Shown in pieces: positions 8,789 to 61,556 of a stretch of DNA of 64,000 bases. The position numbers and the translations under genes were made by a program. Every line of letters starts with the position of its first letter. Position 1 is the first letter of the stretch. Under the pieces are notes generated by a model, which saw nothing but the letters and a program-made list of their open reading frames with translations, was not told where the DNA came from and searched no databases. Origin of the DNA: Escherichia phage vB_EcoS_ESCO40; sequence record NC_106514.1; one strand, 5' to 3'.

Positions 8789-8817
8789 ATTATATCAAAA
8801 TTTTTAGCAAAAAGCAA
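8789..8817 (-). promoter_or_regulatory. sigma70-type early promoter (T5 family)
   Basis: TTGCTT-17-TATAAT. Confidence 0.6.
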
Positions 8818-8858
8818 GTAAAATAAAAGCCTGATCCGCTAAGATCAGGCTTGGTTTA

Positions 8859-9149
8859 TTAATCTTCTGGATTATCATCCAGGAAGTTTTTAATAGCTTC
8901 GTGCATAGTTTCCTTACGAAGCTGACGTCCAATCAAAATATGGTTAGCTTCTACTCGACCATTAGGTAAGCGATCTGCCAGAACTACTACAGGAACTTGG
9001 CGTACACCAAATTTCTGCATTAATTCTGTATTATCAGTCTCTTTATGGACTTCCAAATTATAGTCATTGACTACTTTATCAAATACTGGCTCAAACATTT
9101 TGCAAGGATTGCAAGTAGAACCTTTCAATAGATATACTAATTTACTCAT
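8859..9149 (-). CDS. thioredoxin/glutaredoxin-like protein
   Basis: CxxC motif CNPC near N-terminus, about 96 aa. Confidence 0.55.
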   Translation of the reverse strand: MSKLVYLLKGSTCNPCKMFEPVFDKVVNDYNLEVHKETDNTELMQKFGVRQVPVVVLADRLPNGRVEANHILIGRQLRKETMHEAIKNFLDDNPED

Positions 9150-40514: not shown

Positions 40515-41276
40515 TTACACCTTCCCCATGTCTTTAAAAATATCATAGAATGCTTTAGACTCAACAGAACGAACGTTATCAATCAATTCGATCATTGAGA
40601 ATGGGGCATTTTCGTATTTCTCATAGACTTCCATAAGTAGTGCTAGACCTGAGTCACCTTTAATGTCTTTCTGAGCTATATCTCCGCAGATAATTAAACG
40701 GCAGTCTTGTCCTACACGAGTTAGGAGACAAACCATTGCCTCAACGGAAATATTCTGAGCTTCATCGACAATTACATAGGAGTTGTTGAAAGTTCTGCCA
40801 CGAGCATGTTCTATAGCCAAAAATTTAATTTTCTGACGTTCGACATATCCCTTATAGGCATGATCACCGATGGCCCATTTCATACCATCAGCTATTGGCT
40901 CTAACCAAGGCTCTAGCTTTTCCGCTAGATCACCAGGAAGCATACCAAGAGACTTACCTAGAGGTTCATTAGGACGTACGAGGATCACTTGCTCAATATC
41001 TGAGTGAATGTCTACGAGTTCCTGAGCTGCAAGAACAGACGGGATAAAGGTTTTACCAGTACCTGGCTCCCCGATACCCACAGTCACTGTGTTGTTCTTG
41101 ATCATATTGATATATGATTTTTGCTCGCGGTTTTTACCTACTAGGGATTTAGCAACTGGGTTAGCGTAATCATTAGAAAAATCAGCCTGAATTACGTTAT
41201 TCTCATATTTGTTGCCACGCTTTCTTGAACCATTGCGGTTCTCTCTTTTTTGACGTGCTTTTCCCATAAATAACAC
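40515..41276 (-). CDS. phoH: PhoH-like ATPase
   Basis: Walker A GEPGTGKTF and PhoH-like length. Confidence 0.8.
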   Translation of the reverse strand: MLFMGKARQKRENRNGSRKRGNKYENNVIQADFSNDYANPVAKSLVGKNREQKSYINMIKNNTVTVGIGEPGTGKTFIPSVLAAQELVDIHSDIEQVILVRPNEPLGKSLGMLPGDLAEKLEPWLEPIADGMKWAIGDHAYKGYVERQKIKFLAIEHARGRTFNNSYVIVDEAQNISVEAMVCLLTRVGQDCRLIICGDIAQKDIKGDSGLALLMEVYEKYENAPFSMIELIDNVRSVESKAFYDIFKDMGKV

Positions 41277-41353
41277 TCCTATAGTGTACTTCGCTTCTAA
41301 CAGAGGATCAACAAAGAGATCTTGTTTATCAACTTACAAATATATTATAACAA

Positions 41354-41382
41354 GGTTTACAGCAAAAAGCAAGTATAATTTT
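41354..41382 (-). promoter_or_regulatory. sigma70-type early promoter (T5 family), leftward arm of divergent pair
   Basis: TTGCTT-17-TATAAT. Confidence 0.6.
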
Positions 41383-41544
41383 AAATAAACCTATGATATT
41401 GCTTTTAAGTAAAAAATTTACTTGCTTATAAAGGTAGAAATATGATACTAGATAATCATTTATTTATATGTAAAGATATTATGCTGTATAGCATCGATAA
41501 AAATTGATAAAAATCAAAAGTCAAATAGTATTAGAAAAATGTAG

Positions 41545-41573
41545 TTGACTTATGGGGTGGAATTGTGTATAAT
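41545..41573 (+). promoter_or_regulatory. sigma70 promoter, rightward arm of divergent pair
   Basis: TTGACT-17-TATAAT on plus strand. Confidence 0.6.
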
Positions 41574-41594
41574 ATATGAATTAAGGAGAATTTA

Positions 41595-42266
41595 ATGGTA
41601 AGAAAGAAAATAACTACAGAAGATGTGAACTTAACACTTGCTCCCAGAGGAATAATTATGCTAAGCACGTATATATCAGCTAAATCCAATGCTATATTTA
41701 AGTGCTCTAATGGACATAGTTGGGAGGCTAGAGTAGATAATGTAAAAGGTGGGAGAGGTTGCCCTTATTGTGCTAGTCGTACTTTAGATCTTAAAGAGGT
41801 AAGTGAATCCTTAGCTGCTCGTGGAATAAAGATGGAAGGTAAATACATCAATTCTAAGAGTAAAATTATGTTCAGCTGTGAGAATAATCATAGGTGGGAG
41901 TCTACACTTGATAGTGTTAGAAACCATAGTTCTGGTTGTCCTATATGTTTATTAGAGAAGGATAATTATCCTACTAGCGTATATATTTTAATAAGTAATG
42001 TGGGAACCAAAATAGGAGTGTCTAGCAGAACTAAAGATAGACTCAGAGATATTAAAACTTCTTCTAACATACATGATTTAAAAATATTTAAGGAATATAG
42101 CTTTTCAGATAGATCAAAAGCTATGCGTATTGAAAGAGAGGCCCATTTACAGTTTAAGGAATATAATTGTCAGTACAAAGATTTTGATGGTGCTACAGAA
42201 TTTTTTAATATTGAGCCAGAAGTAGTAGCAAGGTTTATTGAGGAAATAATTAATGACAGAGAATGA
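41595..42266 (+). CDS. zinc-ribbon repeat protein with GIY-YIG-like C-terminal domain
   Basis: Two repeats of ...C.NGH.WE......CPYC/CPIC, then YILISNVG...RLRDIK; overlaps nrdD start. Confidence 0.55.
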   Translation: MVRKKITTEDVNLTLAPRGIIMLSTYISAKSNAIFKCSNGHSWEARVDNVKGGRGCPYCASRTLDLKEVSESLAARGIKMEGKYINSKSKIMFSCENNHRWESTLDSVRNHSSGCPICLLEKDNYPTSVYILISNVGTKIGVSSRTKDRLRDIKTSSNIHDLKIFKEYSFSDRSKAMRIEREAHLQFKEYNCQYKDFDGATEFFNIEPEVVARFIEEIINDRE

Positions 42267-44752: not shown

Positions 44753-45589
44753 ATGCGTAGATTAATTATTATTAGTGGTGCAGGTTTGAGTGTTGAAAGT
44801 GGTGTACGAGCCTTCCGTACTGATACTGCTAGTGGTAAAGCATTGTGGGATGATTATGATCTAGAAGAGGTGTGTAATATTCATGCCTTTCGTGGTAATT
44901 TTTACCATAAAACTCACGCATTTTACAATAAACGTCGTGAAGAGTTAGAAACTGTTGAACCTAATCTTGCACACTTGCGTATTGGTGAATGGTATAAACA
45001 ATACCCAGGTCAGGTAGTAAACTTGACTACCAACGTTGATGACCTTATTGAGCGTGCTGGTGTTCCGCATAGTGACATTCTGCACATTCACGGATACTTA
45101 AAAGAGGTTGTTGTAGCTGATAGCTACAATAGTAGCAATAAACGAATTATTGATGTTGGGTATAGCTCTATTGACCCAGATGATTATAAGTGGGTTAAAC
45201 CTAATGTAATCTTCTTCGGAGAACATGCTCCAGCATACGCGGAGATGTACAATGTTTTTGATGGTATTACCAGTCAAGATATGATTGTGGTGGTTGGTTG
45301 CTCTAACCAAGTAATTAACTTCTACTGGGAATTATTCCCTGTTCTTAATCGGACTGCTGCGAAACTTATGGTAGTTAACTACTACGATAGTGCCTTAGCG
45401 GCGGAACCAGGCTATCAAGGTATGACTCGTAGTGATATGTACCAACTGGAAGATCGTGATATTCCTTACTGGAGTAAAGGTGCGGTAGATGCTTTCAGTG
45501 ACCCTGGTTTTATCGCTCGTGTAGAAGCTCATCTAGAGGGTAGACCTTATATGCCGGAGAGAAGGGGAAACAGATATGTCCATAGTTAA
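44753..45589 (+). CDS. Sir2-like NAD-binding protein (no zinc ribbon)
   Basis: GAGLSVESGVRAFR and TTNVDDL...LHIHGY motifs; no CxxC zinc module seen. Confidence 0.65.
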   Translation: MRRLIIISGAGLSVESGVRAFRTDTASGKALWDDYDLEEVCNIHAFRGNFYHKTHAFYNKRREELETVEPNLAHLRIGEWYKQYPGQVVNLTTNVDDLIERAGVPHSDILHIHGYLKEVVVADSYNSSNKRIIDVGYSSIDPDDYKWVKPNVIFFGEHAPAYAEMYNVFDGITSQDMIVVVGCSNQVINFYWELFPVLNRTAAKLMVVNYYDSALAAEPGYQGMTRSDMYQLEDRDIPYWSKGAVDAFSDPGFIARVEAHLEGRPYMPERRGNRYVHS

Positions 45590-45758
45590 ATCTGTATATA
45601 CACATCCCGATGATATATTTGTATGGGCGGATGGTAGTTGGTGTTATCGTTGTGAGCTATGGGAAATGGACTATAAATCTGATGACTATGGTGTCATATA
45701 TGTTGATACGGTTGAGTATGATACGTTCTTAGCAAGGGACAAAAATGGAAATAAGTAA
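45576..45758 (+). CDS. hypothetical protein (60 aa)
   Basis: ORF, coupled. Confidence 0.4.
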   Translation: MSIVKSVYTHPDDIFVWADGSWCYRCELWEMDYKSDDYGVIYVDTVEYDTFLARDKNGNK

Positions 45759-46251
45759 TACTCCAATTATTTTTCTAGATATTGATGGGGTGCTCAACTC
45801 GAGCATCTCTCATCACCATGCACCTGATGATGAAAAGATTTTCTTTGGAAGTGACTGGGTTTTTAAACCGCTTCTCAAGGCTTTTCAGGACTTTATTCGT
45901 CCTTCTCCAATAATGATTGTTGGGGTATCTTCATGGTTCTCTGTCAGGAATGAGATGGAGAACGTTCAGATTATGACCGGATTAGATCTTATCGATCGTT
46001 TTCTTGGTACAACGGATTTTACTGGTGGTGGGCTATCTAGGGGTAATTCTGTTCTTCGCTTCGTTGAAAAGTATAAGCTCAAACATTGGTGTGTGCTGGA
46101 TGACGCTGGTGCTATGATGTATCAGTATCCAACGGTTATAGTCAATGGTAGAACTGGAATAAATCTTCAAGATTTAAGAGCTGTTAGCTATATGTTAGAA
46201 TTTAGTCCAGATCTTGAAATGTGTAAAGCCCTACAACAATTTAAGGTGTAA
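45745..46251 (+). CDS. HAD-like phosphatase candidate
   Basis: N-terminal IIFLDIDGVLN (DxDG) and later VLDDAG. Confidence 0.5.
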   Translation: MEISNTPIIFLDIDGVLNSSISHHHAPDDEKIFFGSDWVFKPLLKAFQDFIRPSPIMIVGVSSWFSVRNEMENVQIMTGLDLIDRFLGTTDFTGGGLSRGNSVLRFVEKYKLKHWCVLDDAGAMMYQYPTVIVNGRTGINLQDLRAVSYMLEFSPDLEMCKALQQFKV

Positions 46252-46253
46252 AT

Positions 46254-46682
46254 ATGTTTAATAATGTATTCTCTAAAGAAGCTAACCCAATATTGGTTAA
46301 TTTTTGGCGTACTCTTCCAGACAACCTGTACAATGAGGCTATTAATGCCCTGAAAATATGGTGTGAGAATAATGAAATCTCCTTTGCTTTTAGAGGTGAG
46401 GTTGAAGAATCTCCCTGTATTGGTTTAATTGTGCAGGTAGAGGATGGTTTTGAAGAGATTGTCGGCTGGAAAGAGTTAGATGAAATGGGCTTGGTTTTTG
46501 CATTAAACTATAAGCTGTTTATGCCTAATAAACACCGTATTGTTGTTAACTATAAAACCAATGAATCTCCTGGTTTTCAAGTTAATGAACATTACGGTTG
46601 GTCTTACTCACCGGAAGAGGTAAATGATGGTATCCAGAAACTTCGTCGTTTTGGTTATCAGATTCCTGGTTTAACTGCCTAA
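46254..46682 (+). CDS. hypothetical protein, paralog A (142 aa)
   Basis: Shares conserved core with 46692-47084 (...ELDEMGLVFALNYKLFMP vs ...ELSAMGLIVALNFSLFHP). Confidence 0.5.
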   Translation: MFNNVFSKEANPILVNFWRTLPDNLYNEAINALKIWCENNEISFAFRGEVEESPCIGLIVQVEDGFEEIVGWKELDEMGLVFALNYKLFMPNKHRIVVNYKTNESPGFQVNEHYGWSYSPEEVNDGIQKLRRFGYQIPGLTA

Positions 46683-46691
46683 GGGGACACA

Positions 46692-47084
46692 ATGGAACAA
46701 GTATATTGGCGTCAGATTGATCCTAGTTTGGTGAAGCGTGCGGAGAAGCTGCTACAACGTTGGTTGGGGGTAAGACAAGCCTCCTTCACTTTTCCAGAGC
46801 AGCAAATAGATGATCCCTGTGTTGGTGTTTTCCTATCAGGCTACGCTAGGGAATGGGAATTGGATTGGAATGAATTGTCTGCTATGGGTTTAATTGTTGC
46901 ACTAAATTTCTCTTTGTTCCATCCACGTGGTTTGGCCATATGTCGTGTGCCTGGTGACGGTTGTTCGCCCCATCTTTTACAGGTGGAAGATGATATTTGG
47001 GAGTACACTCCAGGTATTCTCAAAGAAGCTAAAGAACAATTAAATCGTGTTGGAATCTATGTTCCGGGACTAAATGATGAATAA
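46692..47084 (+). CDS. hypothetical protein, paralog B (130 aa)
   Basis: Tandem paralog of the previous gene. Confidence 0.5.
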   Translation: MEQVYWRQIDPSLVKRAEKLLQRWLGVRQASFTFPEQQIDDPCVGVFLSGYAREWELDWNELSAMGLIVALNFSLFHPRGLAICRVPGDGCSPHLLQVEDDIWEYTPGILKEAKEQLNRVGIYVPGLNDE

Positions 47085-47268
47085 AGAATATTGGGTATGT
47101 TATGGTAAAATTAAAAAGTGGAATAAGGGTCAACTTTCCGCTAAACAAGTAAAATTTATGGCGAGATATTTGACTGATCCCACTTTCGATATTAAAAAGT
47201 TAAGTAGCTCAAACCGCGCTATTATACTTAAATTTGCTAATACTATTCGTGGTCTTTTTTATGATTAA
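47074..47268 (+). CDS. hypothetical protein (64 aa)
   Basis: ORF. Confidence 0.4.
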   Translation: MMNKEYWVCYGKIKKWNKGQLSAKQVKFMARYLTDPTFDIKKLSSSNRAIILKFANTIRGLFYD

Positions 47269-47275
47269 TCCGTAT

Positions 47276-47304
47276 AACCGAGTCATTTTGGCTCGGTTTT
47301 CTCT
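47276..47304 (+). terminator. intrinsic terminator
   Basis: aaccgag / ctcggtt stem plus T-run. Confidence 0.6.
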
Positions 47305-47344
47305 GTACTCAAAGACACTGATAGCACCATCCGGAAAATTTTAC

Positions 47345-47373
47345 TTGCATGATACTCAAAATCTTGATATAAT
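47345..47373 (+). promoter_or_regulatory. sigma70-type promoter
   Basis: TTGCAT-17-TATAAT. Confidence 0.55.
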
Positions 47374-47389
47374 ATTTATATTGAATTGA

Positions 47390-47873
47390 GAGACATTAGT
47401 AAAAATTGGTTTTACTAATTTTTCTTGTTTACAATCCGCGATACGGAACAGTTAGGCTGCCCCATTAAGGGTTGTTTTAACTGTTACGTGTTAGTTTTTA
47501 AACAAATAGTTAATAGAATACTTAGCGATCTGCGTCCCATAGGAACCCTGGTAAGGCCTCGAAGCAACCTAGTATGAGGTGGTTGTGAAGTGAGATGGGA
47601 GGAGTGAAAAACTACCGAGACGTGATTCTGTAAGTTATATTGCATCTAGTATGAGCTAGTATATGAAGCATTAGGTGAGCAAATCTGGCTTAGCGGCCAT
47701 CCTCAAGGATTTGTGCGGTATAATGAGGCAGCAGCGCAGCGTGAAAGTGGAAGTTGCCACCCCACTTCAGTATTTGCGATTAATTTGTTGAGAAATTGAC
47801 AGTAACAGTTGTTCTATTCTTTCTGAATAGTCCTAAAGAAAACTTATTTCATTTCCAACACAGGAGTATTGTT
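47390..47873 (+). other. long ORF-free leader with AACAGTT/AACTGTT palindromes
   Basis: About 480 nt between promoter and the first plausible start (GTG 47874); contains a possible 12-codon upstream ORF (atgggaggagtgaaaaac...). Confidence 0.35.
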
Positions 47874-50663
47874 GTGTTTTCAATCCTACAAGGTCATGCA
47901 GGATTTCATCGCGATTTAGCCACAGGCAATTGGCGAGAAGTTAAAGCAGAAGATTATCTTTTTGCTAAAAGATTTTCCTCAAAGCATCCTGAAGGTAAAC
48001 CAGCTTCAATGCCCTTCAAGTTTGATGTAATTGACGAAGTTGATCCTCAAACCCTAGTAGAAATGCTCCCTCTTATGAGACGTTTAACGTCTGACCCTCA
48101 TATCGTTGCGGTACGAGGTCGATGTCTTGCACCTAAAAATAATGTGCGGCGTAAGAAGGGCAACTTTAATGTATCTAATCCAAGTCATATAATCGCAATG
48201 GATGTGGATGGTATTGTAGATACAGGAGGTTGTAACAAGTTTGATCTTGTTGGCGTGGCTCGACATATTATTAGGATGTTAAATAGTATTAGTGAGGATA
48301 TGTTTCCTCTTGATGCAGGGTTTATCGCTCATGCATCGTCTTCGGCTGGACTAAAACCAGGTATCCGAATGCACTTAATACTAGAATCTAATGTTAAAGT
48401 TACACAGGGTCAGATCAAGTTCTTATTTACATCTATCAACGAAAGTAGTAGACAAAAGTATGGCTTTGATATTGCCGACTTAGCTTATTACTCTTCCGTA
48501 CAGCTCCACTATTTCGCAGATCCTTTATTTATTGATGGTATAGTCGATCCGTTTAAAGCGGAGGGTGCTTCACGTCTGGTATTTGTTAAAGGCTCAAAAG
48601 TAAATTTACCTAATAATCTAGTTGACTATGAAACAACTAGAGGAGAGTTTAAAGAGGAATTCTACTCTTTACTCGATCAAATTAAAGGTAAAAAAGCTGC
48701 CTCTGATAAAGTAGAGGAAACTATCAGTGAGCTAGAAGAGGCTGATGATGGGGTATACTTACGTATTATTCCAAAGCTATATCACCGAGCGTTAGAGGAT
48801 GGGGTAGATTTTGGTTGGCTAGAAAAAGAAATCCGCCCAGCTTTATCAGAATATATTGCAACTAAAGATAATAGCCGTAATATTCAGGATTATTTCAATA
48901 ACGGACGGAAACAGGCATTAAAAGCCTTTGTGAATAACTCTAAGCGTGAGATCCCTGAAGTATTAAAAGGTATCCCCCTTAAAAAGCTAGAAACTAATTC
49001 ACTAGAGACTGACAACTTCTTGAAATTAAATACTGTACCACCAGAAGGCTATATGACTTTTGTAAAAGCAAGTCTAGGCACAGGTAAAACCACGGCGGTT
49101 GTGCGTTGGTTAGATTCAGGGGTTATTAAAGGTAATTTCTTAGCAATTACCAATACTAGAGCACTGGTATCTTCAAATGCTAAGAAATTTAGTGCAGGAC
49201 AATATGATAAGTCTGTAGATATGCTTAATTTTAAGCGTGGTGCTATTGACCGTATGTCCACAACTATTCACTCTTTGCATAAATTCAAGAGTTTTATTGG
49301 TCAAATTGACGCAATCTTTATCGATGAATGTGATGCAGTAATGAATGACCTATTATTCGCTCCGGTTGTTAAGCAACGTCGCGAGTGTATTCAGGTTCTT
49401 CGTGATATTCTTGCAACTGCAAAAATAATTATATTATCTGATGGGGATATTAGTGCAGAAACAATTGAAGCATATGGTTCTTTGATTGAGTTCGATAAAC
49501 CAGTTGCATTTTACAATCACCACCGTAAAATGCTGTCAAAAGCTCATGCTTATGAGTTCCCTGATGAATCCAGTATTTGGGTTGCACTTCAGACTTCTCT
49601 AGAGATGGGTGAGAAATCTATTCTAGTATCTGATTGTGGCCCGGATGAGCTGAATGAGAAAGGTATGGCACTGCGTCGTAATACGGGTGCGTTAGTTAAG
49701 GAAATCCATTCAAACTCTACCTCAGATGTGGATATTCGACGTATTCTGGATTACACAACTAATGAACTAATTGATCAACAAATTGATTGCTTATTATGTA
49801 GTCCATCCGTAACGAGTGGTGTTGACTTTAACTATTTTGATAACGTATTTGTTATTACTAGAACTAGTAATCAAGCGCCAAACATGCGTTTTCAAGCAAT
49901 CAGGCGCGACCGTGGTGCTCAGAATATCTATTATTTTATTGATAAATCCACTAGTGGGTTCTCTGCTGGTTCTGAACAATATAATATTGATGAAGGTTGG
50001 CTGGAGTTAGCACAGCAGTTATATGCGCGTCGCAGGGAGCTAGAATCTAGGAACTATACTAGTACTTTACGTTATTACTTGCTTGATCAAGGTGCAACTA
50101 TTGATATTTTCAGCGAAAGCTGGGGAACTATTGAAGGTGCTGGTAAAGAGTACACAGAAGAGCGAATCAAAGCTATTCTGCATTCAACTCCAGATTATTG
50201 TGCTCCACGTCATGCGGATGCGTATGAAGCTAAACTACTTCTTGTTCGCTATTATCATCTTGAGTCTATTAAAGATGTAACAGTTGAGCATGTTGAACAA
50301 TATATCAAAGATAAGCCGAATGATCGAGCTGCATTCTTCCATAAGATGCACGAGATGTTCTGGGAAGATATTAAGAAGTGTTCAAATGTGACCATTAAAC
50401 CATTCATAGAAGCTCTGAAAGGTAAGAAGAAGGACTTCTTCCTTAAAACAGGTCAGAGTGCTAACCCAAAATATGCTAGAATGTATCTTGGTATGATGGG
50501 TATTGGTAAAGATATGAACACGGAGAATATCGTAGACTGGTACAGAACCTATTGTAAAATCGAGTGTATGCCAATTCCTTATAAGTTCATGACTGACGAG
50601 GAAAAACATATGCACGATGAAGCAATGTCAGAGCTAGGTGCTAGAAATGACAGTGAAGAATAA
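47874..50663 (+). CDS. large P-loop NTPase (about 929 aa), replication-associated candidate
   Basis: Walker A GTGKTT, Walker B IFIDECD; RBS CAGGAG before GTG at 47874 (track start 47796 unsupported). Confidence 0.55.
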   Translation: MFSILQGHAGFHRDLATGNWREVKAEDYLFAKRFSSKHPEGKPASMPFKFDVIDEVDPQTLVEMLPLMRRLTSDPHIVAVRGRCLAPKNNVRRKKGNFNVSNPSHIIAMDVDGIVDTGGCNKFDLVGVARHIIRMLNSISEDMFPLDAGFIAHASSSAGLKPGIRMHLILESNVKVTQGQIKFLFTSINESSRQKYGFDIADLAYYSSVQLHYFADPLFIDGIVDPFKAEGASRLVFVKGSKVNLPNNLVDYETTRGEFKEEFYSLLDQIKGKKAASDKVEETISELEEADDGVYLRIIPKLYHRALEDGVDFGWLEKEIRPALSEYIATKDNSRNIQDYFNNGRKQALKAFVNNSKREIPEVLKGIPLKKLETNSLETDNFLKLNTVPPEGYMTFVKASLGTGKTTAVVRWLDSGVIKGNFLAITNTRALVSSNAKKFSAGQYDKSVDMLNFKRGAIDRMSTTIHSLHKFKSFIGQIDAIFIDECDAVMNDLLFAPVVKQRRECIQVLRDILATAKIIILSDGDISAETIEAYGSLIEFDKPVAFYNHHRKMLSKAHAYEFPDESSIWVALQTSLEMGEKSILVSDCGPDELNEKGMALRRNTGALVKEIHSNSTSDVDIRRILDYTTNELIDQQIDCLLCSPSVTSGVDFNYFDNVFVITRTSNQAPNMRFQAIRRDRGAQNIYYFIDKSTSGFSAGSEQYNIDEGWLELAQQLYARRRELESRNYTSTLRYYLLDQGATIDIFSESWGTIEGAGKEYTEERIKAILHSTPDYCAPRHADAYEAKLLLVRYYHLESIKDVTVEHVEQYIKDKPNDRAAFFHKMHEMFWEDIKKCSNVTIKPFIEALKGKKKDFFLKTGQSANPKYARMYLGMMGIGKDMNTENIVDWYRTYCKIECMPIPYKFMTDEEKHMHDEAMSELGARNDSEE

Positions 50664-58988: not shown

Positions 58989-61556
58989 TTGAAAATCGCA
59001 GTAGTTGATAAAGCTCTAAATAACACTCGTTATGATAAACATTTCCAGCTATACGGCGAGGAAGTTGATGTATTCCATATGTGTAACGAGAAGTTGTCCG
59101 GTCGTTTGCTCAAAAAGCATATTACTATCGGGACTCCGGAAAACCCATTTGACCCGAATGATTATGATTTTGTTATACTGGTAGGTGCCGAACCTTTCCT
59201 ATACTTTGCAGGTAAGAAAGGTATTGGTGATTATACTGGTAAACGTGTAGAGTATAATGGATATGCTAACTGGATTGCGAGTATCAGCCCAGCCCAGTTA
59301 CACTTTAAACCTGAAATGAAACCAGTTTTTGGTGCAACAGTAGAGAATATCCACGATATTATCAATGGTCGTGAGAAGATTGCAAAAGCTGGTGATTACC
59401 GTCCTATTACTGACCCGGATGAGGCAGAAGAATATATCAAGATGGTGTATAATATGGTTATCGGACCTGTCGCATTCGACTCCGAAACCTCAGCACTATA
59501 CTGTCGAGATGGTTATCTGCTTGGTGTTTCTATGTCTCACCAAGAGTATCAGGGTGTATATATCGATTCTGATTGTCTCACAGAAGTTGCAGTATATTAC
59601 CTCCAGAAAATTCTAGATAGTGAAAACCACACTATTGTTTTTCACAACTTGAAGTTTGATATGCACTTTTATAAGTACCATCTGGGACTTACTTTTGATA
59701 AAGCACATAAAGAACGCAGGCTCCATGATACCATGTTGCAGCACTATGTTCTAGATGAACGTCGGGGTACTCATGGCTTGAAATCTCTAGCAATGAAGTA
59801 TACCGATATGGGTGACTATGACTTCGAACTAGATAAGTTCAAAGATGATTACTGCAAAGCACATAAAATCAAGAAAGAAGATTTCACCTATGATTTAATT
59901 CCGTTTGATATTATGTGGCCTTACGCTGCGAAAGATACAGATGCTACCCTACGTTTACACAACTTCTTCTTACCGAAAATTGAGAAGAATGAAAAACTTT
60001 GCAGTCTGTACTATGATGTTTTGATGCCTGGTTGCGTATTCTTGCAACGTGTTGAGGATCGTGGAGTACCTATCTCTATTGATCGTTTGAAAGAAGCTCA
60101 GTATCAATTGACTCATAATTTGAATAAAGCCCGTGAGAAACTGTACACTTATCCAGAAGTTAAACAGCTAGAACAAGATCAGAATGAAGCATTTAACCCG
60201 AACTCTGTTAAGCAACTTCGTGTTCTTCTGTTCGATTATGTTGGTTTGACTCCAACTGGTAAGTTAACAGATACTGGTGCAGATTCTACAAACGCAGAAG
60301 CTCTGAATGAGTTGGCAACCCAGCATCCGATTGCTAAAACTCTTCTAGAGATTCGTAAGCTGACTAAGCTGATCTCTACTTATGTTGAGAAGATTCTACT
60401 GAGTATTGATGCAGATGGTTGCATTCGTACTGGTTTCCATGAACATATGACTACTTCTGGTCGTCTGAGTTCTTCTGGTAAACTGAACCTGCAACAGTTA
60501 CCTCGTGATGAATCTATCATTAAGGGTTGTGTAGTTGCACCACCTGGATACCGTGTAATCGCATGGGACTTAACAACTGCGGAAGTTTATTATGCTGCTG
60601 TTCTATCTGGTGATAGAAATATGCAACAAGTATTTATCAACATGAGAAATGAACCTGATAAATACCCTGACTTCCACTCTAACATCGCCCACATGGTATT
60701 TAAATTGCAATGTGAACCTCGTGATGTTAAGAAGTTGTTCCCAGCTCTACGTCAGGCAGCTAAGGCAATTACCTTTGGTATTTTGTATGGTTCTGGCCCG
60801 GCTAAAGTAGCACATTCTGTTAATGAAGCATTGCTAGAACAAGCAGCCAAAACTGGTGAACCGTTTGTTGAATGTACTGTTGCAGATGCTAAAGAGTATA
60901 TTGAGACTTACTTTAGTCAATTCCCACAGCTTAAGCGTTGGATTGATAAGTGCCACGATCAGATCAAGAATCATGGATTTATCTATAGTCACTTTGGTCG
61001 TAAACGTCGTCTACATAATATCCACTCCGAAGACCGTGGCGTTCAGGGTGAAGAAATTCGTTCTGGATTTAACGCAATCATTCAGTCTGCTTCTTCTGAT
61101 AGTCTCCTTTTAGGTGCTGTAGATGCAGATAATGAGATCATTTCTCTTGGCTTAGAACAAGAGATGAAGATTGTTATGCTGGTTCATGACTCCGTAGTTG
61201 CTATTGTTCGTGAGGATTTGATCGACCAATACAATGAACTTCTGATTCGTAATATTCAGAAAGACCGTGGTATCAGTATTCCTGGTTGTCCTATTGGTAT
61301 TGATTCAGATTCTGAAGCTGGAGGTTCTCGTGACTATTCTTGTGGTAAGATGAAGAAACAGCACCCATCAATCGCTTGTATTGATGATGATGAGTATACT
61401 CGTTATGTCAAGGGTGTATTACTTGATGCAGATTTCGAGTATAAGAAATTAGCTGCAATGGATAAAGAGCATCCAGACCACAGCAAGTACAAGGATGATA
61501 AGTTTATTGCTGTATGTAAAGATCTGGATAACGTGAAAAGGATTCTCGGTGCTTAA
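58989..61556 (+). CDS. DNA polymerase, family A (855 aa, TTG start)
   Basis: 3'-5' exonuclease and Pol I-like palm motifs; 855 aa matches my recollection of T5 DNA polymerase; RBS AAGAGGAG before TTG. Confidence 0.85.
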   Translation: MKIAVVDKALNNTRYDKHFQLYGEEVDVFHMCNEKLSGRLLKKHITIGTPENPFDPNDYDFVILVGAEPFLYFAGKKGIGDYTGKRVEYNGYANWIASISPAQLHFKPEMKPVFGATVENIHDIINGREKIAKAGDYRPITDPDEAEEYIKMVYNMVIGPVAFDSETSALYCRDGYLLGVSMSHQEYQGVYIDSDCLTEVAVYYLQKILDSENHTIVFHNLKFDMHFYKYHLGLTFDKAHKERRLHDTMLQHYVLDERRGTHGLKSLAMKYTDMGDYDFELDKFKDDYCKAHKIKKEDFTYDLIPFDIMWPYAAKDTDATLRLHNFFLPKIEKNEKLCSLYYDVLMPGCVFLQRVEDRGVPISIDRLKEAQYQLTHNLNKAREKLYTYPEVKQLEQDQNEAFNPNSVKQLRVLLFDYVGLTPTGKLTDTGADSTNAEALNELATQHPIAKTLLEIRKLTKLISTYVEKILLSIDADGCIRTGFHEHMTTSGRLSSSGKLNLQQLPRDESIIKGCVVAPPGYRVIAWDLTTAEVYYAAVLSGDRNMQQVFINMRNEPDKYPDFHSNIAHMVFKLQCEPRDVKKLFPALRQAAKAITFGILYGSGPAKVAHSVNEALLEQAAKTGEPFVECTVADAKEYIETYFSQFPQLKRWIDKCHDQIKNHGFIYSHFGRKRRLHNIHSEDRGVQGEEIRSGFNAIIQSASSDSLLLGAVDADNEIISLGLEQEMKIVMLVHDSVVAIVREDLIDQYNELLIRNIQKDRGISIPGCPIGIDSDSEAGGSRDYSCGKMKKQHPSIACIDDDEYTRYVKGVLLDADFEYKKLAAMDKEHPDHSKYKDDKFIAVCKDLDNVKRILGA

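What the first reader, a model, noticed from the sequence alone, without database searches (positions are those of the whole stretch)
47305..47873. Long structured leader with AACAGTT palindromes ahead of the 929-aa ATPase
The promoter at 47345-47373 is followed by about 480 nt without a credible ORF before the RBS and GTG start at 47874. The leader carries repeated AACAGTT/AACTGTT half-sites (near 47447, 47478, 47805) and a possible 12-codon upstream ORF (atgggaggagtgaaaaactaccgagacgtgattctgtaa). This suggests a regulated leader (attenuation or riboregulation) or a protein-binding site such as an origin-like element near the replication genes.
Basis: seen in the sequence. Interest (0 to 1): 0.5.

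Follow-up and report, generated by a model that had tools for sequence, protein, structure and literature searches.

The report
Large structured RNA upstream of helicase
The 500-base "empty" stretch in front of this T5-like phage's replication helicase gene encodes a large folded RNA that keeps its shape across related phages, matches no family in the RNA database searched, and has no known function.

Summary
A T5-type early promoter (TTGCAT 47345-50, TG-TATAAT 47365-73) is followed by about 494 nt with no conserved ORF before the GTG at 47874.

The three AACAGTT/AACTGTT heptamers are RNA helix strands, not protein half-sites. 47479-85 pairs with 47804-10 at the outer end of a ~37-bp long-range clamp, P1 (47478-47520 with 47771-47811). 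47447-53 lies in a sequence-invariant hairpin, P0.

P1 encloses about 250 nt. Inside are a second long-range helix (P2), two three-way junctions and several hairpins. One hairpin carries an invariant UUAGCG loop.

Compensatory changes support the fold in three alignments: 7, 12 and 23 pairs changed on both sides, with 99, 99 and 91% of cells paired, against 26-57% in slid controls. The 12-codon uORF is not conserved. Rfam 15 and the literature searches returned nothing.

The centre exists as interchangeable alleles. These are about 40% identical to each other and 96-97% identical within an allele, although synonymous sites of the adjacent gene differ by up to 38%.

Function is not shown. My best guess is an RNase III-clamped leader RNA, probably protein-bound, that is excised from the D2/obp helicase mRNA and sets its fate. 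Rivals are a trans-acting RNA, an origin or primer RNA, and a riboswitch.

The parts
47276..47298 (+). Intrinsic terminator of the upstream operon (AACCGAGTCATTTTGGCTCGGTT followed by a T-rich tail). It marks the 5' border of the unit.
   Evidence: Terminator scan. The homologous site is annotated as a terminator in T5.
47345..47373 (+). T5-type early promoter: -35 TTGCAT, 17-nt spacer, TG-extended -10 TATAAT. The inferred start is near 47380.
   Evidence: Sequence. Annotated as a promoter at the homologous T5 position 58999-59073. Conserved in all relatives. The start site itself is inferred.
47388..47426 (+). 5'-terminal stem-loop of the transcript. GAGAGA pairs with UUUUUC, and UUAGUAAAA pairs with UUUUACUAA.
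   Evidence: Predicted in every type. The stem sequence differs while pairing is kept in Pectobacterium, Klebsiella and metagenomic relatives.
47431..47475 (+). P0 hairpin with the near-invariant GAUACGGAACAGUUAGGCUGCCCCAU. It contains the first AACAGTT (47447-53). The apical stem is CAGU/GCUG.
   Evidence: The apical stem is CAG..CUG in most sequences and CGG..CCG in L053, a compensatory change.
47478..47520 (+). P1 clamp, 5' strand. It contains AACTGTT at 47479-85.
   Evidence: 37 bp in the window and 27-38 bp in every sequence type. Cognate strands give dG -19 to -37 kcal/mol (z -2.9 to -9.1), whereas non-cognate strands give background values.
47771..47811 (+). P1 clamp, 3' strand. It contains AACAGTT at 47804-10.
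   Evidence: Same evidence as the 5' strand. Also, inverted repeats I1 and I12.
47525..47534 (+). P2 5' strand, GCG-AU-CUGCG, with the conserved GAUCU and a 2-nt AU bulge.
   Evidence: Pairs with 47735-47742. Changes on both sides at 2 pairs within the window type and at 7 of 8 pairs across types. RNAalifold calls this helix on its own.
47735..47742 (+). P2 3' strand, CGCAGCGU.
47535..47600 (+). Three-way junction A. It consists of P3 (47535-40 with 47595-600), P3a (47547-56) and P3b (47558-94, loop UAG..AGGU).
   Evidence: The same topology is folded independently in 10 representatives of 7 sequence types. Compensatory changes appear in P3 and P3b.
47601..47616 (+). P4 hairpin, GGAGU-GAAAA-ACU(A)CC.
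   Evidence: GC changes to AU on both sides in 6 of 16 sequences. Present in the window-type, L053, Pectobacterium and Klebsiella types. Not evident in the T5 type.
47617..47624 (+). Conserved junction GAGA(C/A)GUG. The T5 type reads GAAAAGAG.
   Evidence: Anchor conserved in sequence and in spacing.
47628..47731 (+). Three-way junction B. It consists of P5 (47628-44 with 47714-31), P6 (about 47643-77; details uncertain) and P7 (47680-47713).
   Evidence: In the T5 type, P5 changes from GUACAG/CUGUAU to GUCCAG/CUGGAU, and P7 shows 4 pairs changed on both sides.
47686..47699 (+). P7 tip, UGGC-UUAGCG-GCCA. The hexaloop is invariant and the closing stem covaries (GGC/GCC, GAC/GUC, GCC/GGU).
   Evidence: found in most T5-like leaders held here, plus Providencia PSTCR5 (by the scan) and PR1 and Proteus (by motif). 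Also.
47743..47768 (+). P8 hairpin, GAAAGUGG-AAGUUGCCACC-CCACUUC.
   Evidence: UA changes to GC on both sides. In the T5 type AUAUGA/UCAUAU changes to GUAUGA/UCAUAC and to GUAUGG/CCAUAC.
47814..47830 (+). 3' hairpin, CUAUUC-UUUCU-GAAUAG, directly after the clamp. No U tract follows it.
   Evidence: Other types read CUAUC/GAUAG, CUUUCC/GGAAAG and ACUAU/AUAGU. The scan does not call it a terminator.
47862..47876 (+). Shine-Dalgarno AGGAG and the GTG start of the 929-aa helicase gene.
   Evidence: Conserved in all relatives.
47874..50663 (+). Downstream gene. It is the homologue of T5.108, described in the literature as the D2 bipolar SF2 helicase and annotated as "replication origin binding protein".
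   Evidence: Pfam Herpes_ori_bp over residues 394-533 (29.2 bits, cut-off 20) and PHROG 3712. PMC3632103.
47595..47633 (+). It is listed here because I reject it as a functional part.
   Evidence: The AUG is ACG in 13 of 16 window-type sequences. The uORF lies across P3, P4 and the conserved junction.

Best explanation
What it is (confidence about 0.9). The early promoter at 47345-73 transcribes a ~494-nt untranslated leader. Its core is a large, conserved RNA fold.

- It starts with a 5' stem-loop and a sequence-invariant hairpin, P0.
- A ~37-bp AU-rich clamp, P1 (47478-47520 with 47771-47811), encloses about 250 nt.
- Inside the clamp are a second long-range helix (P2, with a conserved AU bulge), two three-way junctions and the hairpins P4, P7 (invariant UUAGCG loop) and P8.
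- A 3' hairpin lies directly after the clamp, followed by about 40 nt of A/U-rich spacer before the ribosome-binding site of the D2/obp helicase gene.

How it most likely works (inferred; about 0.35-0.4 for the whole chain).

- The clamp is long enough to be cut by host RNase III, as happens with phage T7 early-mRNA sites and with the stems that flank rRNA.
- Cleavage would release the ~330-nt fold as a stable particle with paired ends.
- It would leave the helicase mRNA with a new 5' end just before the 3' hairpin.
- The few invariant single-stranded motifs (the UUNGG loop of P0, the GAUCU bulge, GAGAAGUG and the UUAGCG loop) would be contact points for a protein.
- Folding, protein binding and processing of the leader together would then set how much helicase mRNA survives and is translated early in infection.

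Shown: the fold, its conservation, its position and its allelic cassette behaviour. Inferred: transcription from this promoter, RNase III cleavage, protein binding, and any effect on helicase expression. The confidence value given for this entry (0.38) is for the whole mechanistic chain, not for the existence of the fold.
For: Fold.
- Window-type alignment (16 sequences): 128 pairs, 98.9% of cells paired, 7 pairs changed on both sides. No shuffle of 500 reached the observed values for three measures (cells paired, cells changed on both sides, covariation score); 51 of 500 reached the count of pairs changed on both sides. Slid controls gave 32-48% paired.
- T5-type alignment (14 sequences, including T5 itself): 128 pairs, 99.3% paired, 12 pairs changed on both sides, 0/500 shuffles.
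- Across 7 sequence types: 41 column-consistent pairs, 90.6% paired, 23 changed on both sides against 8.9 +/- 1.9 in shuffles, 0/500.
- RNAalifold independently calls P0, P2 and the P7 tip.
- Minimum-free-energy folding of each type on its own returns the clamp and the same two three-way junctions. Spacing between the sequence anchors is conserved to within about 10 nt.

Clamp.
- Cognate strands pair at -19 to -37 kcal/mol (z -2.9 to -9.1). 5' and 3' strands taken from different types pair at -6 to -18 kcal/mol, except within the closely related window-type and T5-type groups.

Strand.
- 18 of 128 pairs are G.U in the window and 19 of 128 in T5. These would be A.C mismatches on the other strand.

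Not coding.
- No ORF is conserved.

Context.
- Promoter, leader and helicase gene have the same order and orientation in all Markadamsvirinae loci examined. No terminator separates the RNA from the gene.
- Distant Demerecviridae also have 430 to more than 1300 nt unannotated ahead of obp. In Vibrio Thalassavirus-type phages that gap folds with compensatory changes.

Constraint.
- Within an allele the leader is 96-97% identical, while 4-fold degenerate sites of the adjacent gene differ by 15-38%.
Against: - No expression platform is visible. The conserved fold ends about 60 nt before the start codon. The 3' hairpin has no U tract. No conserved helix sequesters the Shine-Dalgarno sequence.
- RNase III cleavage is inferred from helix length only.
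- In Proteus phage Stubb a perfect consensus promoter (12/12) lies between the homologous RNA and obp, 37 nt before the ATG. There the helicase can be made without the RNA in its mRNA, which favours the RNA being a unit of its own.
- A fold this elaborate is more than a processing site needs.
- The whole-leader folding z-score is modest (-2.06) and no better than that of the opposite strand (-2.39).
- The details of P6 are uncertain, and P4 is not evident in the T5 type.
Confidence: 0.38

Rival explanations
1. Stand-alone, trans-acting structured RNA. The clamp-enclosed ~330-nt fold would be the functional product, for example an RNP scaffold, a decoy, or an RNA acting with the replication machinery. 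It would merely be hosted in the helicase transcription unit and released by processing. Under this reading it does not regulate the helicase gene in cis.
For: - The 5' and 3' ends are brought together by a long helix, as in many stable RNAs.
- The fold has two three-way junctions and invariant loops far from the ribosome-binding site.
- No expression platform is present.
- Proteus phage Stubb has a 12/12 consensus promoter between the RNA and obp.
- Primary sequence is conserved at 96-97% within each allele, far above the neutral expectation.
Against: - The RNA is always directly upstream of obp and in the same orientation, including in subfamilies where the sequence can no longer be aligned.
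- No terminator gives it a 3' end of its own.
- No second copy and no candidate target was found in the window.
Confidence: 0.25
2. Transcript-dependent replication origin. The strong early promoter would drive an RNA whose folding controls formation of a persistent RNA-DNA hybrid or primer next to the initiator helicase gene. Analogues are ColE1 RNA II, the phage T7 primary origin and the phage T4 R-loop origins.
For: - The element sits directly upstream of the gene annotated as origin-binding protein / D2 helicase (PMC3632103), across the whole family.
- It has a strong promoter and AT-rich clamp arms.
- The T5 origin has never been mapped to sequence (PMC3632103, PMC10055335).
- The allelic cassette behaviour resembles that of replicon specificity modules.
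Against: - There are no iterons or direct repeats apart from one 15-nt pair.
- There is no GC-skew inflection here. The skew turn and a GC trough of 0.275 lie at about 41.2-41.6 kb.
- Selection acts on RNA pairing, including G.U pairs.
- The name "origin binding" rests only on helicase-domain similarity to herpesvirus UL9.
Confidence: 0.13
3. Metabolite-sensing riboswitch, or another ligand-sensing leader, that controls helicase expression.
For: - It is a long structured 5' leader with multi-helix junctions.
- It has a handful of invariant unpaired nucleotides.
Against: - No Rfam family matches, even at E up to 10.
- Very few nucleotides are invariant between alleles, which are about 40% identical in the centre. 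Riboswitch cores are usually strongly conserved in sequence.
- There is no terminator and no Shine-Dalgarno-sequestering platform.
- The fold is larger than known aptamers.
Confidence: 0.07
4. Plasmid-style control of the helicase leader by an antisense RNA encoded on the opposite strand of the same cassette. This would explain the self-contained allelic specificity.
For: - The alleles are 96-97% identical within themselves but at random-level identity to each other.
- They are inherited independently of the flanking gene, as in the incompatibility determinants of antisense-controlled replicons.
Against: - No promoter-like site lies on the - strand inside the leader in the window or in T5. The only one is a 9/12 match inside the helicase ORF at 47982-47953. 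Fewer sites were found than expected by chance.
- G.U pairs favour the + strand RNA.
Confidence: 0.05
5. The region holds small protein-coding genes, as some GenBank records annotate, or is non-functional spacer.
For: - Three or four "hypothetical proteins" of 38-50 aa are annotated here in Salmonella phages GEC_vB_N5 and FGS029.
- ORFs of 28-53 aa exist in the window.
Against: - None of these ORFs keeps its position, strand, length or start codon across types, and most start with TTG or GTG.
- The substitutions are compensatory for RNA pairing.
- Conservation is far above the neutral level.
Confidence: 0.02

Closest known systems
RNase III processing helices: phage T7 early-mRNA sites, the lambda N leader, and the stems flanking 16S/23S rRNA
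   Same: A long double-stranded helix of at least two turns sits in a phage early transcript. As in rRNA operons, it is formed by sequences flanking a folded RNA, so cleavage would excise that RNA and create a new mRNA 5' end.
   Different: T7 and lambda sites are simple local hairpins. Here the helix closes a ~250-nt multi-junction domain with its own conserved motifs. Cleavage has not been shown, and the comparison rests on established knowledge of these systems rather than on a test run here.
ColE1 RNA II and the R-loop origins of phages T4 and T7
   Same: A strong promoter drives a long, structured, untranslated RNA at a replication locus.
   Different: There is no evidence of a hybrid-forming or primer-processing site. 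This RNA precedes a helicase gene rather than an origin mapped to sequence. No GC-skew signal or iterons were found.
Large structured phage or bacterial non-coding RNAs (phi29 pRNA, GOLLD, ROOL)
   Same: It is phage-borne, of comparable or larger size, and has paired ends. Secondary structure is strongly conserved while primary sequence identity between lineages is weak.
   Different: There is no sequence or covariance-model similarity to any of them. The genomic context differs, since this RNA is the leader of a replication helicase gene. The resemblance in behaviour is recalled from the literature and was not tested.
Riboswitches and other cis-regulatory 5' leaders
   Same: The position, between promoter and start codon, and the multi-helix junction architecture.
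   Different: There is no expression platform. Very few nucleotides are invariant between alleles. No Rfam match was found.
Antisense-controlled rep-gene leaders of plasmids (R1 CopA/CopT, the ColE2 and IncB families)
   Same: A long structured leader lies ahead of a replication initiator or helicase gene, and discrete sequence alleles resemble incompatibility types.
   Different: No antisense promoter was detected. This is a lytic phage, not a copy-number-controlled plasmid.

Membership tests
Any Rfam 15 family (4227 covariance models) | A score at or above the family's gathering threshold | tested here: not met
   The whole window at gathering thresholds returns only tRNAs at 17.6-29.0 kb. 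For 47150-47950 at E up to 10, the best match is MicF at 33.7 bits against a threshold of 79. It lies at 47217-47304, over the upstream terminator and outside the fold.
tRNA / tmRNA | Cloverleaf or tmRNA structure recognised by ARAGORN | tested here: not met
   18 tRNA genes were found, none between 29 kb and the end of the window.
RNase III substrate (T7 R-site or rRNA-stem type) | A double-stranded helix of about 20 bp or more | tested here: met
   P1 has 37 bp in the window and 27-38 bp in every type. It is interrupted only by single-nucleotide bulges or mismatches.
RNase III substrate (T7 R-site or rRNA-stem type) | Staggered cleavage in vivo that depends on the rnc gene | not testable with these tools
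   This needs end-mapping in wild-type and rnc hosts.
Riboswitch | A ligand-binding core conserved in sequence across all members | tested here: inconclusive
   Only GAUCU, GA(G/A)AAG(U/A)G, CUUAGCGG and the P0 sequence are shared between alleles. The centre is about 40% identical between them.
Riboswitch | An expression platform: an intrinsic terminator, or a helix that sequesters the Shine-Dalgarno sequence, coupled to the aptamer | tested here: not met
   No terminator-like site lies between 47299 and 47873. The 3' hairpin at 47814-30 has no U tract. No conserved pairing with AGGAG at 47862-66 was found.
Leader-peptide transcription attenuator | A conserved short ORF in the leader, followed by alternative terminator and antiterminator hairpins | tested here: not met
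   The uORF start codon is ACG in 13 of 16 close relatives. No ORF is conserved across types. There is no terminator.
Iteron-type replication origin | Several direct repeats (iterons) next to an AT-rich unwinding element | tested here: not met
   There is only one two-copy 15-nt direct repeat, at 47569 and 47646. Both copies lie in RNA hairpins.
Replication origin, any type | A turn in cumulative GC skew at the site | tested here: not met
   Skew stays positive from 41.4 to 55 kb. The turn is at about 41.2-41.6 kb. In a phage whose skew follows transcription direction this is only a weak test.
Transcript-primed origin (ColE1, T7 or T4 type) | A promoter directed into the origin | tested here: met
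   The early promoter at 47345-73.
Transcript-primed origin (ColE1, T7 or T4 type) | Initiation of DNA synthesis at the site | not testable with these tools
   No mapped T5 origin was found in the literature searched (PMC3632103, PMC10055335).
Lambda-type nut site (boxA plus boxB) | A boxB hairpin (5-bp stem with a GAAAA-type pentaloop) conserved together with a boxA consensus | tested here: not met
   P4 (GGAGU-GAAAA-ACUCC) has this shape only in the window type. Its loop differs in the Pectobacterium phages, and P4 is not evident in the T5 type. By my own comparison against the rrn boxA consensus as I recall it, UUCUUGUUUACAA at 47421-33 matches about 9 of 13 positions and lacks the GCUC core.
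Antisense-RNA-controlled rep leader | A promoter on the opposite strand inside the leader | tested here: not met
   No - strand promoter-like site lies inside the leader in the window or in T5.
Retron msr-msd RNA | Flanking inverted repeats plus an adjacent reverse transcriptase gene | tested here: not met
   Flanking inverted repeats exist (P1). The neighbours are Sir2-like (by T5 annotation), HAD_SAK_2, two DUF7415 proteins and a helicase, with no reverse transcriptase among the genes scanned.
Group I intron | The Rfam Intron_gpI core, and interruption of a gene | tested here: not met
   No hit at E up to 10. The element lies in an untranslated leader, not inside a gene.

The most novel reading that the evidence does not exclude
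The clamp-enclosed ~330-nt fold would be a new class of large functional phage RNA that works with the D2/obp helicase in starting replication. Possibilities are an RNA that defines or primes the still-unmapped T5 origin, or one that loads or gates the helicase. It would circulate among T5-like phages as interchangeable specificity cassettes. Analogous RNAs, not alignable in sequence, would sit ahead of obp throughout Demerecviridae.
Probability: 0.2. Interest if true: 0.85.

Novelty: new member of a known kind. Interest (0 to 1): 0.7.

Why it matters
- **Model phage.** T5 is a classical model phage, and its promoters are laboratory workhorses. Yet this 500-nt stretch is unannotated in the reference genome, and some records fill it with spurious small "hypothetical proteins".
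- **Rare kind of RNA.** Bacterial and phage RNAs of more than 300 nt with many conserved helices are rare, and those understood so far do sophisticated jobs.
- **Unusual constraint.** Within an allele the RNA is far more conserved than synonymous sites of its neighbouring gene. It nevertheless exists as alternative alleles that share a fold but almost no sequence.
- **Position.** It sits directly before the helicase thought to start T5 replication, whose control and origin are unknown.
- **Testability.** The coordinates and the pairing model given here make these questions directly testable, and T5 RNA-seq data sets and genome-editing tools already exist.

Tried and rejected
- **Rfam at gathering and permissive thresholds**. 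Nothing was found. The sub-threshold MicF match covers only the upstream terminator.
- **Scan of IMG/VR for the P0 motif** GAACAGTNNGGCTGCNNCAT. The non-T5 hits are one unrelated coding sequence from a single metagenome, plus scattered chance matches.
- **Scan for GAGAAGTG-N55-85-CTTAGCGG** in genome and viral collections. The pattern is too unspecific at this database size and told me nothing.
- **Metagenome scan with the helicase N-terminus**. It added only close relatives and one useful intermediate (L053).
- **MAFFT Q-INS-i structural alignment.** It was not installed. I used anchor-segmented alignments and per-type folding instead.
- **A covariance model of the whole domain.** I did not attempt it, because about 335 positions exceeds the calibration limit. 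A sub-domain seed from MAFFT (A4) was too poorly aligned across types to build on.
- **Local hairpin 47443-54 with 47478-89** (I4) as a switch against P1. I rejected it as a conserved feature. The A-for-G change in Epseptimavirus-type phages breaks it and is compensated only in P1, and the Pectobacterium and Klebsiella phages lack it.
- **Pairing of GGAACAG with UUGUUC** beyond P1. It is not conserved.
- **Similarity to host DNA.** None was found in 5,426 E. coli genomes.
- **Resemblance of UGGCUUAGCGGCCAUC to the L11-binding hairpin of 23S rRNA.** I noticed this from memory. The order of the helices differs and I did not pursue it.
- **The T5 anti-retron "Rad"** (10.1101/2023.03.15.532788). 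It is a protein encoded in the tRNA region and is unrelated.
- **A possible 4-5-bp pseudoknot** between ACUU at 47527-30 and AAGU in the P8 loop. The pairing is swapped to AAGU/ACUU in T5 and L053. It is too short to judge.
Full report
**Where we are.** The window is a T5-like phage of the family Demerecviridae. The region 47200-47900 is 99.7% identical to Salmonella phages S130 and S131 and to Escherichia phage IrisVonRoten. It matches 522 phage records, almost all T5-like. The finding lies between a small ORF (47074-47268), which ends at an intrinsic terminator (47276-47298), and the 929-aa gene starting with GTG at 47874.

That gene is the homologue of T5.108. It has a Herpes_ori_bp-like SF2 helicase segment and matches PHROG 3712, "replication origin binding". 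The literature describes it as the bipolar helicase D2 and suggests that it starts replication (PMC3632103). In the T5 reference genome the homologous interval carries an annotated terminator and promoter, followed by about 470 nt with no annotation.

- The promoter is TTGCAT (47345-50), a 17-nt spacer, and TATAAT (47368-73) preceded by TG.
- About 494 nt follow before the GTG.
- The heptamers are at 47447-53, 47479-85 (as AACTGTT) and 47804-10.
- The uORF is at 47595-47633.
- AACAGTT is only mildly over-represented in the window, at 21 against 12.9 +/- 3.5. The local cluster has a structural cause, described next.

**The heptamers are helix strands.** 47479-87 and 47802-10 are perfectly complementary (I12). 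The complementarity continues inward, to give about 37 bp between 47478-47520 and 47771-47811, interrupted only by single bulges or mismatches. I call this clamp P1.

Folding the whole leader of each relative separately returns an equivalent long-range helix of 27-38 bp in every sequence type. These are the window type, the T5 type, a metagenomic intermediate (L053), Pectobacterium phages DU_PP_V and My1, and a Klebsiella phage. The Providencia phages PR1 and PSTCR5 also fold with an equivalent long helix. The strand sequences are unrelated between types.

Each type's 5' strand pairs with its own 3' strand at -19 to -37 kcal/mol, with z between -2.9 and -9.1 against shuffles. It pairs with the 3' strand of a different type only at background level, -6 to -18 kcal/mol, except within the closely related window-type and T5-type groups. 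In Epseptimavirus-type phages the G of AACUGUUAC is A, and its partner C is U. This keeps P1 but breaks the alternative local hairpin with the first heptamer. The first heptamer belongs to a separate, sequence-invariant hairpin, P0 (47431-75).

**The fold inside the clamp.** Five short motifs recur in the same order and at nearly the same spacing in all types:

- the P0 loop;
- GAUCU;
- GAGA(A/C)GUG, or GAAAAGAG in the T5 type;
- CUUAGCGG;
- the P8 loop.

Folding the segments between these motifs independently gives the same topology each time.

- A second long-range helix, P2 (47525-34 with 47735-42), has a conserved AU bulge.
- Three-way junction A consists of P3, P3a and P3b.
- Hairpin P4 follows.
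- Three-way junction B consists of P5, P6 and P7. The tip of P7 is a 3-4-bp stem closing the invariant hexaloop UUAGCG.
- Hairpin P8 follows.
- Outside the clamp there is a 3' hairpin (47814-30).

**Pair counts on three alignments.**

| Alignment | Sequences | Pairs counted | Cells paired | Pairs changed on both sides | Shuffles reaching that count | Slid controls, cells paired |
|---|---|---|---|---|---|---|
| Window type | 16 | 128 | 98.9% | 7 | 51/500 | 32-48% |
| T5 type, including T5 | 14 | 128 | 99.3% | 12 | 0/500 | 34-50% |
| Seven types mixed | 15 | 41 | 90.6% | 23 (shuffles 8.9 +/- 1.9) | 0/500 | 26-57% |

For the window-type alignment no shuffle of 500 reached the observed values for cells paired, cells changed on both sides, or covariation score. 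The mixed alignment uses only column pairs that survive an imperfect MAFFT alignment.

RNAalifold on that mixed alignment independently predicts P0, P2 (strands 230 nt apart) and the P7 tip. About 14% of pairs are G.U (18 and 19 of 128). These would be mismatches on the other strand, so the selected molecule is the + strand RNA.

The weak points are P6, which has alternative foldings, P4, which is not evident in the T5 type, and a possible 4-5-bp pseudoknot that cannot be judged.

**Not coding, and no attenuator.** ORFs in the leader differ in position, strand, length and start codon between types. The uORF's AUG is ACG in 13 of 16 close relatives, because that position is the compensating partner of a P3 base pair. 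No terminator-like hairpin lies between the promoter and the gene. The small "hypothetical proteins" annotated here in some GenBank records are therefore almost certainly artefacts.

**Allelic cassettes.** The leader's flanks are 94-100% identical between the window type and the T5 type. These flanks are the promoter, the 5' stem-loop, P0, the outer part of P1, the 3' hairpin and the ribosome-binding site. The centre is only about 40% identical, which is close to random.

Within a type, the whole leader is 96-97% identical. Yet 4-fold degenerate sites of the adjacent helicase gene differ by 15% (L007), 38% (L015) and 35% (T5) from the window.

L015 carries the window-type RNA although its helicase gene is as far from the window's as T5's is. 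So the centre behaves as an exchangeable cassette that is either under very strong sequence constraint or spreading by recombination.

Homing-endonuclease genes sit next to the leader in several relatives: upstream in L005, L016 and L018 (assigned by eye), and hegI downstream of T5.108. These could drive such exchange, but this is an inference.

**How far the element reaches.**

- The CUUAGCGG hairpin and a long clamp are present in Tequintavirus, Epseptimavirus, Klebsiella, Pectobacterium, Providencia and Proteus phages.
- More distant Demerecviridae keep a long unannotated gap before obp: Serratia 433 nt, Vibrio JSF10 about 1100 nt, and Aeromonas TS3 more than 1300 nt.
- In Vibrio Thalassavirus-type phages the ~710-nt gap begins with a promoter and a 5' hairpin. 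It folds into a large structure with 9 changes on both sides among only four sequences. It also shows the pattern of a conserved 5' part followed by a divergent centre. No control was run on this last analysis, so it is suggestive only.
- Outside the family I found nothing. Motif scans gave only chance hits, and E. coli genomes have no similar sequence.

**What it does.** Nothing here shows function, so the following is inference.

A ~37-bp helix in an E. coli or Salmonella transcript is a textbook RNase III substrate. Cutting it would excise the fold, as happens with rRNA. It would leave the helicase mRNA starting just before the 3' hairpin. The invariant unpaired motifs look like protein contacts.

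I therefore favour, at about 0.35-0.4, an RNase III-clamped, protein-bound leader that sets the fate of the D2/obp mRNA.

The main rival, at about 0.25, is that the excised RNA is itself the product. This is favoured by three things:

- the paired ends;
- the lack of any expression platform;
- a perfect consensus promoter between the RNA and obp in Proteus phage Stubb.

A transcript-dependent origin, at about 0.13, fits the neighbourhood and the cassette behaviour. It is not supported by repeats or GC skew, nor by the strand bias of recombitron editing in T5 (PMC10055335).

A riboswitch (0.07) and antisense control (0.05) lack their defining features.

**Known or new.** Rfam 15 has no matching family. 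Five full-text searches found no description of an RNA, leader or origin at this locus. The T5 papers I read concern promoters (PMC7472727), the D2 protein (PMC3632103) and other loci.

I file it as a new family within a known kind, structured non-coding leader RNAs of phages. There is a real chance, about 0.2, that it is a new class of large functional RNA tied to replication initiation.

Noticed in passing
window 41200-41800: There is a GC trough (0.275-0.30) together with the turn of cumulative GC skew from negative to strongly positive. This is probably the divergent-transcription boundary of the early region. On composition alone it is a better origin candidate than the finding's locus.
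   Followed up: no
window ~8812-8872, - strand: A perfect 10-bp hairpin, AAGCCUGAUC-UUAGCG-GAUCAGGCUU, is followed by a U tract, so it is an intrinsic terminator. A T5-type early promoter comes directly after it. Its loop is the same UUAGCG hexamer as the invariant P7 loop of the leader RNA. This may be coincidence or a shared recognition motif.
   Followed up: partly
L014, L026, L035 (between the 5' stem-loop and P0 of the leader; equivalent to window ~47427): A ~97-nt insertion, CTTAGTGAAGCTGACAAGGGATTTACGG...AAAAAGTTTTTT, is present in leaders of both allele types. It is absent from the window, with no copy elsewhere in the 64 kb. Vibrio phage Ceto has a ~94-nt insertion at the analogous place in its leader. 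This may be a small mobile or optional RNA module.
   Followed up: partly
L039 2435-2464 (Proteus phage Stubb): A second, perfect consensus promoter (12/12) lies 37 nt upstream of the obp start codon. It is downstream of the structured RNA and of about 210 nt of further untranslated sequence.
   Followed up: partly
L001 1636-1666 (Salmonella phage oselot) and L178 (phage GEC_vB_N7): There are small tandem duplications inside the leader's 5' part. GCTAATTTT occurs three times in oselot, where it is annotated as a repeat_region. CAATCCG occurs twice in N7. The region between the 5' stem-loop and P0 therefore tolerates length changes.
   Followed up: no
window 44753-47268: The upstream operon encodes a Sir2-like protein, a protein with the HAD domain of "Swiss Army Knife" RNA-repair proteins (45745-46251), two tandem DUF7415 paralogues (46254-46682 and 46692-47084) and a 64-aa protein (PHROG 29527). 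The T5 reference genome labels the HAD protein as Sir2.
   Followed up: partly
L003 1562-2092 and L175 798-1327: GenBank records for Salmonella phages FGS029 and GEC_vB_N5 annotate three "hypothetical proteins" inside the leader. One in N5 is even named "putative replication origin-binding protein" at 38 aa. These are very likely annotation artefacts over a non-coding RNA.
   Followed up: yes
L005, L016, L018, L029 (upstream of the leader): In some relatives the gene upstream of the leader is replaced by a different gene, which by eye looks like a homing endonuclease (not scanned). The leader then starts from a different promoter (TTTGCAAGGGAGTATTATTTTATAGTATAAT) that is fused to the same initial transcribed sequence.
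   Followed up: no
window 47569-47583 and 47646-47660: A direct repeat, CTAGTATGAG(G/C)T(G/A)GT, occurs twice. One copy forms the P3b loop and the other lies in the P6 hairpin. The two three-way junctions therefore carry a similar UAGUAUGAG element.
   Followed up: no
window 47953-47982, - strand: A weak promoter-like site (TTGAGG, 18-nt spacer, GATAAT; 9/12) lies inside the helicase ORF and points back towards the leader. It is the only antisense candidate, and no equivalent was found in T5.
   Followed up: partly
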